Part shown: piece after piece, positions 31,732-34,049 of the stretch
Layout of the letters: the number at the start of each line of letters is the position of its first letter
How positions within the stretch are numbered: position 1 is the first letter of the stretch
Virus record (IMG/VR): IMGVR_UViG_2534682161_000025
Source: a virus
Taxonomy: Duplodnaviria; Heunggongvirae; Uroviricota; Caudoviricetes
Length of the DNA stretch: 40,833 nt
Direction: 5' to 3' (one strand)
Translations under genes and position numbers: made by a program
The notes under the pieces: generated by a model
Seen by the model: the letters and a program-made list of their open reading frames with translations, nothing else
Databases searched by the model: none
What the model was told of the DNA's origin: nothing

Positions 31732-32463
31732 TTACTTGATAAATCCTGCCGCCTTTCCCCGCCTGTATTCCTCCATTAGCCACTGCGCCGGTGTTATTCC
31801 CCCCAGGGTGGCGGCGTTAGGCATACACCCGAAACTTCGCCCTGGTGGATGGTAAACGTCTCTCCCTGTGTCCGGAGGCGTACTCATGGGCTCTGGCTTT
31901 GCCTGTATGCTGATCACCGGATCGGGTATCTGCTGTCCGGAAGCCACCTTTTTCGCCCAATCATCGAGCAGCCTGCGCGCGTGTTTCTCAACCTCAATCT
32001 CGCTAAGCTGGCGCTGATACATTGCACGGCGGGTATCACATACGACCCAGTACATAACCGGATGTCGCCACGGGAATCTTTCGGGACCACCAGGATATAA
32101 ACTTTTTTCCTTGCTGTACCGGTGAAACTCCGCCATCACATCGTCAATGGTGACGCCAAGAACCATCTTGCTGTCTTTACACCACTTGATGAATTGCCCT
32201 GGCGACGGCCAGAACGGAGACTCACTGGCGCGAGCGTGGCGCATACCAGCAGAAACCTGTTCACGGGTTCGGATCCCACCTTCGGCAAACGCAGCAATCC
32301 ACTGCTGTTTTGCAGCAACTTCCTGCTCTGGCGTCTTCAGGTTGGTTACTACTGCCGCCGGAAACAGTTGTTTCAGCTGTTTGAAAAGGGCATCAACAAG
32401 CCTCTCTGCTGACATGTTCACCACATTGTCATTGTTGACGTATTGATGCTCATAACCTGACAT
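31732..32463 (-). CDS. Replication protein P-like (helicase loader)
   Basis: C-terminal half aligns by eye with lambda P (SAGMRHARASESPFWPSPGQF...IPDPV versus lambda NAGMRVARRQNRPFLPSPGQF...IPEPV); start set to ATG at 32463 after the O-like stop. Confidence 0.75.
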   Translation of the reverse strand: MSGYEHQYVNNDNVVNMSAERLVDALFKQLKQLFPAAVVTNLKTPEQEVAAKQQWIAAFAEGGIRTREQVSAGMRHARASESPFWPSPGQFIKWCKDSKMVLGVTIDDVMAEFHRYSKEKSLYPGGPERFPWRHPVMYWVVCDTRRAMYQRQLSEIEVEKHARRLLDDWAKKVASGQQIPDPVISIQAKPEPMSTPPDTGRDVYHPPGRSFGCMPNAATLGGITPAQWLMEEYRRGKAAGFIK

Positions 32464-32513
32464 GCGAGAAAGGGCTTCTCCGTCACGGTTTTGTATCGCG
32501 GTAAAAACGTTGT

Positions 32514-33353
32514 TCACAAGAAATCCTCCCACGCTTCAGGGCTGTTCCAGTGCGGAACGTTGTTATCAGGTAATGTTGATTGCTTCTGTCTGCTAATCTG
32601 CAGCCGCCTTGCCAGCTTCTGCTCCCACTGTGCCTGATGGTATGCCTTACCCTCAGCCATCCAGTAAATTCTGAACTCTGCAAGTTCCTGTGCCGTTGGC
32701 AGACTGTCCAGGTAGATTCCCTGCAATGAGCTTTTCCGAAGAAAGTCATCTGATGGTTGCCATTGTTCATGCATGACAAATTTGCCTAATTGCCCTGGCC
32801 CACCAGGAGGAACAAAGTTATTCATCACGGCGTTGTTTGCGCCGGGGTCATGAGGCACAGAATCCCCGGTTTTTGTCCTGCTCCCCCTCTCTTGGTTAAA
32901 TGACTGGTTATATGACTGGTTCTGGATCCCGTTTTTGGGATCATTCAACATCCCGTTTTTGGGATCATTCAACATCCCGTTTTTTGGATCATTCAACATC
33001 CCGTTTTTGGGTATATTCCCGTTTTCGGTAACATTTCCGTTTTCGGGTTCATTACTCCCTTCCCGGTTGCCTTTAATGTTCCCGTTTTTGGTTATATTAA
33101 GAGAGAAAACCCGCACTCTTTTCGTCGCTCCCTTTCTCTCTCCGGTATCTGAAATAAGCCCCATTTTCATGAGCGATATAAGCCCGGCCTGCACGGTTTT
33201 TTTATTCAGGCAAGTGTCTTTAACGAGGCGTTCTATGCTGGGGTAGCAGAGGTTATATTCATCGGCTCTGTCAGCCATCGAGAGCAGTATGAGCTTTAAT
33301 GATGAGCTGCCTGGATCTGTCTCCCAGGCCCAATCTGTTGCATGTCTGCTCAT
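32514..33353 (-). CDS. Replication initiator, O-like, with N-terminal HTH and internal iteron-encoded peptide repeats
   Basis: HTH-like N-terminus; three tandem NGMLNDPK repeats encoded by DNA iterons; precedes the P-like gene. Confidence 0.7.
   Translation of the reverse strand: MSRHATDWAWETDPGSSSLKLILLSMADRADEYNLCYPSIERLVKDTCLNKKTVQAGLISLMKMGLISDTGERKGATKRVRVFSLNITKNGNIKGNREGSNEPENGNVTENGNIPKNGMLNDPKNGMLNDPKNGMLNDPKNGIQNQSYNQSFNQERGSRTKTGDSVPHDPGANNAVMNNFVPPGGPGQLGKFVMHEQWQPSDDFLRKSSLQGIYLDSLPTAQELAEFRIYWMAEGKAYHQAQWEQKLARRLQISRQKQSTLPDNNVPHWNSPEAWEDFL
32925..33095. repeat. Origin-like iteron array inside the O-like gene
   Basis: Seven copies of CCCGTTTT(T/C)GG; first four in a 24-bp unit GGGATCATTCAACATCCCGTTTTT with internal GGGAT/ATCCC dyad, then 18-bp spaced degenerate copies. 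Confidence 0.75.
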
Positions 33354-33368
33354 GATTAATCTCCGCTA

Positions 33369-33569
33369 TCAGCTTGAATGTTGTGGGGAGGAATTAATCA
33401 TGATCTGCTTAATCTCTGCCCTAATGCGACGGTTTGATTCCATGGTGCACTCAACACAGTGTCCGTTGTAAACCCAGCGTTCACTGTCATGTCCGTGCTT
33501 ACATGGTTTTCCGGTGTAGTAGCGTTTAAGTCCGCGCTTTGCGGCATCAATACGTGTAATGATTTCCAT
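33369..33569 (-). CDS. Small zinc-ribbon protein (66 aa)
   Basis: ATG at 33569; CKHGH...CVEC pattern; between cro-like and O-like genes. Confidence 0.45.
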   Translation of the reverse strand: MEIITRIDAAKRGLKRYYTGKPCKHGHDSERWVYNGHCVECTMESNRRIRAEIKQIMINSSPQHSS

Positions 33570-33649
33570 GGTAAGCCCTGTTATTAGTATTGGGATTACG
33601 GTTATTTTGTGCTGACACAAAAAAAAGATCAACCAGATTTGGTTTTTTA

Positions 33650-33664
33650 TTACCTTTAAGGTAC
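33650..33664. promoter_or_regulatory. Dyad site TTACC-tttaa-GGTAC (site F)
   Basis: Motif family member just downstream of the terminator that follows the cro-like gene. Confidence 0.35.
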
Positions 33665-33670
33665 GAATAG

Positions 33671-33697
33671 ATATGAAAAGACCGCCGGATGGCGGTC
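33671..33697 (-). terminator. Intrinsic terminator after the cro-like gene (tR1-like position)
   Basis: gaccgcc-ggat-ggcggtc hairpin followed on the minus strand by TTTTCAT. Confidence 0.5.
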
Positions 33698-33719
33698 TAC
33701 AGAGGGTTGTAGCTGGATA

Positions 33720-33950
33720 TCATGAGTAGAAGAAGTATGCCAGTTCTGCTTTTGAGCGCAGCCATTGTCTTGTTTTACAGGCTTTAAAAAGCCCATTCAT
33801 CAATACTTTACCTGGCATTTTTCGCTTACCTGTTAAGTGAGTCTGGATATAGTGACTCGTCGTTCCGGCTTCCTGTGCGAAGGCTTCACGCTCATCCGGA
33901 GTAAGTGCAAGCCAGTGCTTTTTGAAATCGAAATGTCCGTTATCGCTCAT
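33720..33950 (-). CDS. Cro-like small DNA-binding protein
   Basis: 76 aa; HTH-like segment; first gene of the minus-strand early-right operon, divergent from the repressor candidate. Confidence 0.55.
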   Translation of the reverse strand: MSDNGHFDFKKHWLALTPDEREAFAQEAGTTSHYIQTHLTGKRKMPGKVLMNGLFKACKTRQWLRSKAELAYFFYS

Positions 33951-33975
33951 AGCTATTGCCTGATATTTATTTCAG

Positions 33976-34049
33976 ATAATAAATATTCACCCATAAGGTA
34001 ACAAAAATCAAGGATAGTTACCTATGAGGTGCATTTACCTGTTGGGTAA
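33976..34049. promoter_or_regulatory. Immunity-region operator/promoter cluster: three dyad sites plus a PR-like promoter
   Basis: Sites TCACC-cataa-GGTAA (33987), TTACC-tatga-GGTGC (34018), TTACC-tgttg-GGTAA (34035); minus-strand TTGTTA (33999..34004), 17 bp, TATTAT (33976..33981) overlapping the first site. Confidence 0.5.

What the first reader, a model, noticed from the sequence alone, without database searches (positions are those of the whole stretch)
32925..33095. Replication origin iterons embedded in the O-like gene and translated as peptide repeats
Seven copies of CCCGTTTT(T/C)GG sit inside the initiator gene, four in a strict 24-bp unit with internal GGGAT/ATCCC dyad symmetry and three degenerate copies at 18-bp spacing. 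The three NGMLNDPK protein repeats are a by-product. The two spacings suggest two classes of initiator binding site.
Basis: partly seen in the sequence, partly recalled or inferred. Interest (0 to 1): 0.45.

Follow-up and report, generated by a model that had tools for sequence, protein, structure and literature searches.

The report
Phage replication-origin repeats inside initiator gene
A cluster of seven short DNA repeats inside a phiV10-like phage's replication-initiator gene is very probably the phage's replication origin, built like the textbook lambda origin but paired with a different initiator protein, so it is a solid but conceptually ordinary find.

Summary
The repeats are real. Seven same-strand copies of CCCGTTTTYGG (five exact, two with one mismatch) lie at 32928-33091 and nowhere else in the 40.8-kb window. 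They sit in the linker of a minus-strand gene (32514-33353) that encodes an HTH_36 winged-helix domain plus a DnaT-like C-terminal domain. A lambda-P-family gene follows it.

In 63 non-redundant homologous genes from many genera the core is about 60-fold enriched. It keeps one orientation and one position, and a third of the copies are read in another codon phase. The DNA is therefore conserved, not the peptide. The motif variant tracks the N-domain subfamily. In Edwardsiella phage GF-2 this N-domain plus array replaces the lambda O N-domain plus ori-lambda, colinearly.

It is conserved family-wide and occupies the position of lambda's AT-rich region.

The two spacings (17-18 and 24 bp) are a family trait of unknown meaning. 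The gene is O-like in role only, not in Pfam family. Binding and origin activity are inferred, not shown.

Verdict: a new member of a known kind.

The parts
32514..33353 (-). Replication initiator gene, 279 aa. It has an N-terminal HTH_36 winged-helix domain, an Asn/Gly/Lys-rich linker that contains the repeats, and a C-terminal DnaT-like domain.
   Evidence: ORF list. Pfam HTH_36 E 1.9e-10 (aa 18-67) and DnaT domain E 1.3e-15 (aa 192-260). PHROG 1032 'replication initiation protein' E 9e-113. The C-domain matches E. coli DnaT chains in the PDB at E 7e-21.
33153..33302 (-). Coding region of the HTH_36 domain (aa 18-67), the presumed iteron-binding domain.
   Evidence: Pfam. The motif variant co-varies with the subfamily of this domain.
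32926..33013 (.). Distal iteron class: four core copies in 24-bp register, with cores at 32929-32938, 32953-32962, 32977-32986 and 33001-33010. The coding-sense unit is GATCCCAAAAACGGGATG, with an ATCCC/GGGAT dyad around an A-tract.
   Evidence: The number of 24-bp units varies from 1 to 5 among near-identical relatives. In the family the last spacing is mostly 24 bp.
33014..33053 (.). Proximal iteron class: two copies at 18-bp spacing, with cores at 33019-33028 and 33037-33046. In coding sense they read CCGAAAACGG, with a CCG/CGG dyad.
   Evidence: The 18-bp units vary from 2 to 4 among relatives. A 17-18 bp spacing is the second family-wide mode.
33078..33095 (.). Isolated seventh copy, first in gene order, with its core at 33082-33091. 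It lies 45 bp from the next copy, in the least stable 30-bp stretch of the region.
   Evidence: The stability profile puts it at the 98th percentile.
32886..32921 (.). Second conserved element: tandem 12-mers, in coding sense AACCAGTCATAT / AACCAGTCATTT / AACCAAGAGAGG, directly after the last iteron. It is the candidate unwinding or single-strand-binding region and occupies the position of lambda's AT-rich tract.
   Evidence: TRF. A tandem pair AAYCHNNCA at 11-13 bp occurs in 46 of 68 homologous genes, always after the last iteron: 0.80 per kb against 0.0038 per kb in the flanks. A 13-bp spacing shifts the frame between units, so the conservation is in the DNA. It aligns with lambda's AT-rich region in GF-2. 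The 30-bp stability percentile is 94.
32862..32876 (.). Degenerate eighth motif copy beyond the 12-mers, in coding sense ACAAAAACCGGGGAT.
   Evidence: (D6). The key position is polymorphic (AAC/ACC/AGC) among close relatives, so it is probably weak or decaying.
32574..32780 (-). Coding region of the DnaT-like C-terminal domain (aa 192-260). It is presumed to contact single-stranded DNA and/or the P-like loader-DnaB complex.
31732..32532 (-). Lambda-P-family helicase-loader gene. It overlaps the end of the initiator gene.
   Evidence: Pfam Phage_lambda_P E 1.5e-56. PHROG 109 'P-like helicase loader' E 4.7e-92.

Best explanation
The array is the iteron part of this phiV10-like (Uetakevirus) phage's origin of replication. 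The origin lies inside the gene of the initiator that binds it, as in ori-lambda.

Proposed sequence of events:
1. Early leftward transcription expresses the 279-aa initiator and the P-like loader.
2. Dimers of the initiator's N-terminal HTH_36 winged-helix domain bind the seven dyad/A-tract sites (core CCRAAAACGG in coding sense).
3. The resulting nucleoprotein complex distorts the DNA and opens the adjoining tandem 12-mer region (32886-32921).
4. The DnaT-like C-terminal domain and the lambda-P-like protein bring in the host DnaB.

What is shown here: the repeats, their uniqueness in the window, their frame-independent conservation at the DNA level, their co-variation with the N-domain, and their positional equivalence to ori-lambda. 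What is inferred: binding, unwinding and helicase loading. The NGMLNDPK peptide repeats are a translation by-product in a low-complexity linker.
For: 1. There are seven same-strand copies, none elsewhere in 40.8 kb, and 0 of 100 shuffles reach that number. The only tandem arrays in the window are here.
2. In 63 non-redundant homologous genes (N-domain 40-87% identical; Escherichia, Vibrio, Acinetobacter, Edwardsiella, Pseudoalteromonas and others) the core CNRAAAAYGG occurs 130 times in sense and 2 times in antisense inside the genes (2.34 per kb). The flanks hold 10 and 4 copies in about 263 kb. All copies fall in the linker after the HTH domain.
3. The copies lie in codon phases 89/31/10 and are read as PKNG, xQKR or PKTE. 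Selection therefore acts on the DNA, not on the peptide.
4. The variant motif follows the N-domain subfamily. Genes with the 7-aa insertion have 2 type-A and 65 type-B copies; genes without it have 140 type-A and 6 type-B. More distant members carry other dyads in the same place.
5. Relatives with the same DnaT-like C-domain but other N-domains (Tyrion, SPN1S) have no such array.
6. The GF-2 initiator consists of this N-domain plus array fused to a C-domain 62% identical to lambda O aa 156-299 (E 2e-67), and is followed by a lambda P gene. The GF-2 and lambda ori DNA align colinearly: iterons, then the 12-mers/AT-rich region, then the conserved palindrome.
7. The annotated lambda iterons (ATCCCTCAAAACGAGGGA and relatives) resemble the unit here. 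They also lie in three codon phases, at 20-24 bp spacing.
8. Copy number varies in whole units among near-identical relatives, as it does between lambda with 4 iterons and Stx phages with 6 (PMC7466680).
9. Among 46 alleles the cores vary less than the spacers: 2 of 60 sites against 14 of 85, p=0.015.
10. The linker is only 16% hydrophobic, against 37% for the rest of the protein.
Against: - There is no experimental binding or replication data for this family. None was found in the held literature.
- No pronounced AT-rich tract like lambda's exists. The 12-mers are only 67% AT and reach only the 94th percentile of instability.
- Sequence homology of the N-domain to lambda O is weak in my own test (hhalign probability 13.6%).
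- The polymorphism test does not separate the cores from the rest of the gene (p=0.29 for cores plus 12-mers).
- The co-variation counts are not phylogenetically independent.
- The cumulative GC-skew minimum at 32-34 kb is confounded by the switch of gene orientation at about 34 kb.
Confidence: 0.8

Rival explanations
1. The sites do bind the initiator, but their role is control rather than initiation. They might act in autoregulation, as a transcriptional roadblock inside the gene, or in copy-number 'handcuffing', while the actual start site lies elsewhere in the genome.
For: The comparative evidence shows a DNA element tied to the N-domain, not origin firing as such. The region has no strong AT-rich tract. 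Iterons of plasmids are known to serve in both initiation and control (established knowledge).
Against: No further motif copy exists anywhere in the window, including promoter regions. No other repeat cluster is present. The element is colinear with ori-lambda in the GF-2 chimera. A conserved tandem 12-13-mer element sits where lambda unwinds.
Confidence: 0.08
2. The repeats are selected at the protein level as a repetitive flexible Asn/Gly/Pro/Lys linker (NGMLNDPK units), and the DNA repeats are the by-product.
For: The peptide motif PKNG/PENG recurs in many homologues, and PHROG profiles extend through the linker.
Against: A third of the motif copies (41 of 130) are translated in other frames, as xQKR or PKTE, often within the same gene. 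Spacings of 17 and 13 bp shift the frame between neighbouring units. Orientation is strict and the DNA dyads are conserved.
Confidence: 0.04
3. It is a neutral, slippage-prone minisatellite in a tolerant linker, with no function.
For: Unit number varies freely among near-identical relatives: 1-5 units of 24 bp, 2-4 of 18 bp and 1-3 of 12 bp.
Against: The same core is kept across genera whose N-domains are only 40-60% identical. The cores vary less than the spacers. The variant follows the N-domain subfamily.
Confidence: 0.03
4. The dyads act as RNA or DNA hairpins, for example weak intrinsic terminators of antisense (+ strand) transcription or an mRNA structure, or they are sites for a host protein.
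For: A consensus scan flags two terminator-like hairpins on the + strand at 32936-32955 and 32960-32979, each GGGAT-N8-ATCCC followed by a T run.
Against: The stems are only 6 pairs with 3 G-C. The mRNA-sense fold is not unusual (z = -1.54). Many family members keep the core without the flanking dyad. By inspection there is no resemblance to DnaA boxes or to the IHF consensus.
Confidence: 0.02

Closest known systems
ori-lambda with the lambda O / P replication module (including Stx-phage variants)
   Same: - Direct repeats with internal dyad symmetry around an A-tract lie inside the initiator gene, between the DNA-binding N-domain and the C-domain.
- The sequences are similar: lambda ATCCCTCAAAACGAGGGA against GATCCCAAAAACGGGAT here.
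- Spacing is about 20-24 bp, and the repeats are read in several codon phases.
- A P-family loader gene lies immediately downstream.
- Iteron number is polymorphic (4 in lambda, 6 in Stx phages).
- The two origins are colinear in the GF-2 chimera.
   Different: - The initiator N-domain is Pfam HTH_36, not Phage_rep_O, and the C-domain is DnaT-like, not the lambda O C-domain.
- There are seven sites in two spacing classes.
- There is no marked AT-rich tract. Conserved tandem 12-13-mers stand in its place.
Edwardsiella phage GF-2 gp62 'replication initiation O-like' (and the Vibrio, Acinetobacter and PPompW prophage initiators with the same N-domain)
   Same: They share the HTH_36 N-domain (about 40-60% identity), the same core motif, the same 24-bp distal spacing and the same 12-13-mer element.
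   Different: The C-terminal domains and partner genes differ: lambda O C-domain plus P in GF-2, a DnaB-like helicase in AB1, and DnaT-like plus P here. None has been characterised experimentally as far as I could find.
DopC/DopE of Cellvibrionales and Oceanospirillales (Brezellec et al. 2017, PMC5509034)
   Same: The two-gene architecture is the same: an HTH_36 + DnaT C-terminal domain protein next to a lambda-P-like protein.
   Different: DopC/DopE are domesticated chromosomal genes. The authors found no iteron-like sequences in dopC, and the locus is not the origin. The phage gene here keeps a full array.
Iteron plasmid origins (RK2 oriV/TrfA, F/RepE, pPS10/RepA)
   Same: A winged-helix initiator binds directly repeated iterons, next to an unwinding element made of tandem 13-mers that Rep proteins can bind as single strands (PMC4081077, listed; established knowledge).
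   Different: Those origins are normally outside the rep coding sequence. The Rep families are different, and DnaA boxes are usually present.
E. coli primosomal protein DnaT
   Same: The C-terminal domain is clearly homologous (E 7e-21 to PDB DnaT chains).
   Different: DnaT has no origin-binding HTH domain and no iterons. It acts in PriA-dependent replication restart.

Membership tests
Lambda-type phage origin (iterons inside the initiator gene) | Cluster of at least 4 direct repeats with internal dyad symmetry inside the initiator ORF, between the DNA-binding and C-terminal domains | tested here: met
   Seven copies at aa 88-142 of a 279-aa protein, between HTH_36 (aa 18-67) and the DnaT domain (aa 192-260).
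Lambda-type phage origin (iterons inside the initiator gene) | AT-rich unwinding region flanking the iterons on the gene-distal side | tested here: inconclusive
   Tandem 12-mers of 67% AT occupy the right position (aligned with lambda's AT-rich tract through GF-2). They reach only the 94th percentile of 30-bp instability in the window.
Lambda-type phage origin (iterons inside the initiator gene) | Helicase-loader gene of the lambda P family immediately downstream | tested here: met
   PF06992 E 1.5e-56; PHROG 109 E 4.7e-92.
Lambda-type phage origin (iterons inside the initiator gene) | Initiator binds the repeats, and the fragment supports replication with the initiator and P supplied | not testable with these tools
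   Only indirect evidence is available: frame-independent conservation, co-variation with the N-domain, and a natural module swap.
Lambda O protein family (Pfam Phage_rep_O, PF04492) | N-terminal domain matches PF04492 | tested here: not met
   The window protein hits HTH_36 and DnaT only. Lambda O hits PF04492 at E 5.7e-36. hhalign against the lambda O N-domain gives probability 13.6%. A remote relation through HHpred is reported in PMC5509034.
Lambda O protein family (Pfam Phage_rep_O, PF04492) | C-terminal P-interacting domain homologous to lambda O aa 156-299 | tested here: not met
   The C-domain here is DnaT-like. GF-2, not this phage, carries the lambda O C-domain.
HTH_36 + DnaT_C initiators paired with a P-like loader (phage counterpart of DopC/DopE) | HTH_36 N-domain, DnaT C-domain and an adjacent P-family gene | tested here: met
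   The architecture is described in PMC5509034.
Iteron-plasmid origin | Rep protein of a plasmid Rep family (Rep_3, RepA/RepE, TrfA) and DnaA boxes | tested here: not met
   No such Pfam hit. No DnaA-box-like sequence was seen by inspection of 32850-33110.

The most novel reading that the evidence does not exclude
The tandem 12-13-mers (GAAYCWNYCA-type, window 32886-32921) could be a previously undescribed, sequence-specific origin element. It might be a defined unwinding or single-strand-binding site recognised by the HTH_36 initiator, comparable to Rep binding of DUE 13-mers in plasmids. It is kept across gamma-, beta- and delta-proteobacterial prophages whatever the iteron variant, the C-terminal domain or the helicase loader. 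Together with the two fixed iteron spacings (17-18 and 24 bp), it would define a distinct, widespread origin architecture rather than a copy of ori-lambda.
Probability: 0.3. Interest if true: 0.55.

Novelty: new member of a known kind. Interest (0 to 1): 0.38.

Why it matters
- It gives a precise, testable origin for phiV10-like phages, which are used as O157 reporter and engineering phages. The same region is present in 424 of 5426 complete E. coli genomes.
- It also predicts the origin for a large set of prophages in Vibrio, Acinetobacter, Edwardsiella and other genera that share the N-domain.
- It shows that [DNA-binding domain + origin] moves as one module between initiators with different C-domains and loaders.
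- It supplies the iteron-bearing phage counterpart of the domesticated DopC/DopE and DnaT-type genes.
- In practice, the array explains the length polymorphism of this gene, and it warns that recoding or deleting this linker would destroy replication.

Tried and rejected
- AlphaFold2 on the single sequence gave mean pLDDT 38, which is uninformative. No fold search was run. The only homologues the tool would accept for an alignment were near-identical E. coli proteins.
- hhalign of the N-domain against the lambda O N-domain was weak (probability 13.6%).
- Literature searches for phiV10/epsilon15 origins, for iterons with DnaT-like initiators, and for the literal motif found nothing on this element.
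- The mRNA-sense fold of the array is not unusual (z = -1.54).
- The promoter scan found no more sites than shuffles do.
- Duplex-stability profiling showed no lambda-like AT-rich tract.
- The cumulative GC-skew minimum at 32-34 kb coincides with the array, but also with the switch in gene orientation, so I do not count it as evidence.
- My first polymorphism test was invalid twice: once through misaligned alleles and once through a peptide filter that biased it. The unbiased version is.
- Small 'plasmid' records carry a related initiator plus P: the 8.46-kb circular E. coli record NZ_CP148379.1 and the 8.6-kb linear Klebsiella record NZ_CP130688.1. They look like lambda-dv-type prophage fragments, but they could be assembly products, so I treat them only as a hint of autonomous replication.
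- The initiators of Tyrion and SPN1S have no in-gene array.

Full report
**1. What is there**

Window 32925-33095 lies inside a minus-strand ORF of 279 aa (32514-33353).

- The pattern CCCGTTTTYGG with up to one mismatch matches seven times in the whole 40,833-base window. All matches are on the + strand, at 32928, 32952, 32976, 33000, 33018, 33036 and 33081. Chance expectation is 1.33, and no shuffle of 100 reaches seven.
- Five copies are exact and two have one mismatch.
- Tandem Repeats Finder reports a 24-bp array (3.6 copies, 96% matches, 32926-33011), an 18-bp array (3.1 copies, 32999-33053) and a 12-bp array (2.4 copies, 32893-32921). These are the only tandem arrays in the window at score >=50.
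- The spacings are 24, 24, 24, 18, 18 and 45, so the seventh copy is isolated.
- The ATCCC/GGGAT dyad is intact in the first two 24-bp units and decays in the third and fourth.
- In coding sense the unit is GAT CCC AAA AAC GGG ATG TTG AAT. This gives three NGMLNDPK repeats, and all seven cores are read in one phase as xKNG or xENG.

**2. The genes**

- The ORF has an N-terminal HTH_36 domain (aa 18-67, E 1.9e-10) and a C-terminal DnaT DNA-binding domain (aa 192-260, E 1.3e-15).
- The C-domain matches E. coli DnaT chains in the PDB at E 7e-21.
- The ORF does not match Pfam Phage_rep_O. Lambda O does, at E 5.7e-36.
- The next gene (31732-32532, minus strand) belongs to the lambda P family (E 1.5e-56; PHROG 'P-like helicase loader').
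- The repeats encode aa 88-142, in a linker that is 16% hydrophobic against 37% for the rest of the protein.
- The window is a phiV10-like Uetakevirus: 96.5% identity to phiV10 over this stretch. The stretch is present in 424 of 5426 complete E. coli genomes.
- The phiV10 record annotates terminators but no origin.

**3. Is DNA or peptide conserved?**

This is the decisive question. A tblastn search showed a mosaic. The N-terminal half including the repeats (aa 1-~150) matches initiators of Edwardsiella GF-2, of Vibrio and Acinetobacter phages and of PPompW prophages. The C-terminal half matches other uetakeviruses (Tyrion, SPN1S) that have different N-domains.

Reading the homologues codon by codon, the same DNA core appears in other reading frames:

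- ACC CAA AAA CGG GAT (TQKRD) in GF-2.
- The same core read as TQKRE in PPompW.
- GAC CCA AAA ACG GAA (DPKTE) in Vibrio phage Her.

I then fetched 68 diverse loci from bacterial genomes, with N-domains 40-87% identical to the window's. In 63 non-redundant genes:

| Location | Sense copies of CNRAAAAYGG | Antisense copies | Density of sense copies |
|---|---|---|---|
| Inside the genes | 130 | 2 | 2.34 per kb |
| Flanks (about 263 kb) | 10 | 4 | 0.038 per kb |

The copies cluster in the linker after the HTH domain. Their codon phases are 89 (PKNG/PENG/TENG/TKNG), 31 (xQKR) and 10 (PKTE/PKTG), often mixed within one ORF. Selection therefore acts on the DNA word, in one orientation, and the peptide repeats are a by-product.

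**4. Link to the N-terminal domain**

- A subfamily of Acinetobacter-type genes with a 7-aa insertion in the N-domain uses CCAAYARYGG instead of CCRAAAAYGG. With the insertion the counts are 2 type-A and 65 type-B copies; without it they are 140 and 6. These counts are not phylogenetically independent.
- More distant members carry other dyads at the same place: GTGCCAAAAGTGGCAC in a Zoogloeaceae MAG, GTCCCAAAAGTGGGAC in Halodesulfovibrio, and CCCGAAC...GTTCGGG in a Desulfovibrionaceae genome.
- Tyrion and SPN1S keep the DnaT-like C-domain but have other N-domains, and show no array in the gene.

The array therefore travels with the HTH_36 domain, not with the C-domain or the loader.

**5. Equivalence to ori-lambda**

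- The lambda record annotates four iterons inside O at aa 117-145, in codon phases 0, 2, 2 and 1, spaced 20, 24 and 23 bp. They are ATCCCTCAAAACGAGGGA, ATCCCCTAAAACGAGGGA, ATCCCTCAAATTGGGGGA and ATCCCTCAAAACAGGGGG. The unit here, GATCCCAAAAACGGGAT, resembles them.
- The GF-2 initiator is a natural chimera. It has an HTH_36 N-domain plus CCCAAAATTGGG iterons, followed by a C-domain 62% identical to lambda O aa 156-299 (E 2e-67), followed by a lambda P gene.
- The GF-2 and lambda origin DNAs align colinearly. Iterons lie over iterons. The GF-2 12-13-mer region lies over lambda's AT-rich tract. A nearly identical palindrome region follows (CGTCnGAGAATTCTGnCGAATCCTCnGAC).

So [this N-domain + this array] substitutes for [lambda O N-domain + ori-lambda] as a unit.

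A published analysis describes the same HTH_36 + DnaT_C / P-like architecture for the domesticated DopC/DopE pair (PMC5509034). It relates the DopC and lambda O N-termini, and it notes that dopC has no iterons and is not an origin. That fits iterons being kept only where the gene still serves a mobile replicon.

**6.

Directly after the last iteron come tandem 12-mers. In coding sense they are AACCAGTCATAT, AACCAGTCATTT and AACCAAGAGAGG, at window 32886-32921.

- A tandem pair AAYCHNNCA at 11-13 bp occurs in 46 of 68 family genes, always at this position: 0.80 per kb against 0.0038 per kb in the flanks.
- A 13-bp spacing puts neighbouring units in different frames (QNQSLEPVIEP), so the DNA is again what is conserved.
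- The element persists in members with different iteron variants.
- In the window it is 67% AT and only at the 94th percentile of 30-bp instability. The least stable spot of the region is at the first iteron (33070-33100, 98th percentile).

It is the best candidate for the unwinding or single-strand-binding site, but this is inference.

**7. The two spacings**

Family-wide, spacings between successive cores are bimodal: 17-18 bp (57 cases) and 24 bp (60 cases). The last interval is mostly 24 bp and the first mostly 17-18 bp. The layout is inherited, not peculiar to this window.

Among 80 near-identical relatives the 24-bp units number 1-5 (mode 2; the window has 3). The 18-bp units number 2-4 and the 12-mers 1-3. 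Proteins of 287 and 311 aa also exist.

In Stx phages the four iterons next to the AT-rich tract bind O well. The two distal ones bind weakly yet are needed (PMC7466680). This is a plausible parallel for strong distal 24-bp sites and auxiliary proximal sites here. Whether there are two classes of site cannot be settled computationally.

**8. Weaker evidence**

- Among 46 alleles of the modal length, variable sites are 2 of 60 in the cores, 14 of 85 in the spacers (p=0.015), 2 of 31 in the 12-mers and 51 of 637 in the rest of the gene. Cores plus 12-mers do not differ from the rest of the gene (p=0.29).
- A degenerate eighth copy at 32862-32876 is polymorphic at its key base.
- The cumulative GC-skew minimum falls at 32-34 kb, but is confounded by gene orientation.
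- PLSDB holds two circular 41-kb phiV10-like 'plasmids'. It also holds an 8.46-kb circular E. coli record that consists of a cro-type regulator, YdaT, a related initiator, P and a few other genes, which is reminiscent of lambda-dv. These may be assembly products.

**9. Rivals**

- A protein-level repeat is contradicted by the frame analysis.
- A neutral minisatellite is contradicted by conservation across genera.
- Hairpin or terminator roles are weak: 6-pair stems, an mRNA fold with z = -1.54, and a dyad that is not conserved across the family.
- The remaining serious rival is that the initiator binds here for control rather than initiation. Against it stand the absence of any other site in the genome and the colinearity with ori-lambda.

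**10. Verdict**

This is a lambda-type origin embedded in its initiator gene, belonging to a widespread but experimentally uncharacterised initiator family (HTH_36 N-domain; here with a DnaT-like C-domain and a P-like loader).

It is a new member of a known kind. The conserved 12-13-mer element and the fixed two-spacing layout are the parts worth an experiment. Binding, unwinding and origin firing remain to be shown.

Noticed in passing
They turned out to be conserved family-wide in DNA, at 12-13 bp spacing, in 46 of 68 homologous genes.
   Followed up: yes
window 32862-32876: A degenerate eighth iteron-like copy (coding sense ACAAAAACCGGGGAT) lies beyond the 12-mers. In relatives the key codon is AAC, ACC or AGC, so some phages have an intact copy flanking the 12-mers on the other side.
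   Followed up: partly
window 32842-32869: A 6-bp G+C inverted repeat (coding sense CCGGGG-N16-CCCCGG) follows the 12-mers, roughly where lambda has its palindrome to the right of the AT-rich tract. It could be chance.
   Followed up: no
window 32936-32979 (+ strand): A consensus scan calls two terminator-like hairpins antisense to the initiator gene (GGGAT-N8-ATCCC plus a T run). They are formed by neighbouring iteron units and are weak (6 pairs, 3 G-C).
   Followed up: partly
window about 32000-34000: The global minimum of the cumulative GC skew of the window falls here. It coincides with the array, but also with the divergent-transcription switch near 34.0 kb.
   Followed up: partly
L002 (PP488543.1, Escherichia phage BP9, 133290-137342) and PP350014.1 (phage PH444): A 138-kb record classified as a Vequintavirus, and a 115-kb unannotated record, each carry a phiV10-like repressor/initiator/P module (94-96% identical) near one end. 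This may be a chimeric assembly or contamination.
   Followed up: no
L160 (NZ_CP148379.1, 8461 bp, circular) and L159 (NZ_CP130688.1, 8600 bp, linear): Small 'plasmid' records consist of a prophage regulator/YdaT/HTH_36-DnaT-like initiator/P block plus a few other genes, with no other rep gene listed. They are either lambda-dv-like natural mini-replicons or assembly artefacts.
   Followed up: partly
NZ_CP079771.1 and NZ_CP079768.1 (PLSDB, 41027 bp): phiV10-like genomes are recorded as circular non-mobilizable plasmids of duck E. coli isolates. The phage genome was therefore present as a free circle in those cultures.
   Followed up: no
L009 (Salmonella phage SPN1S, 1530-2345) and L004 (Enterobacter phage Tyrion, 3054-3821): Uetakeviruses with the same DnaT-like C-domain but unrelated N-domains have no iteron array in the gene, and SPN1S has no P-like gene after it. 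Their origins must be organised differently.
   Followed up: partly
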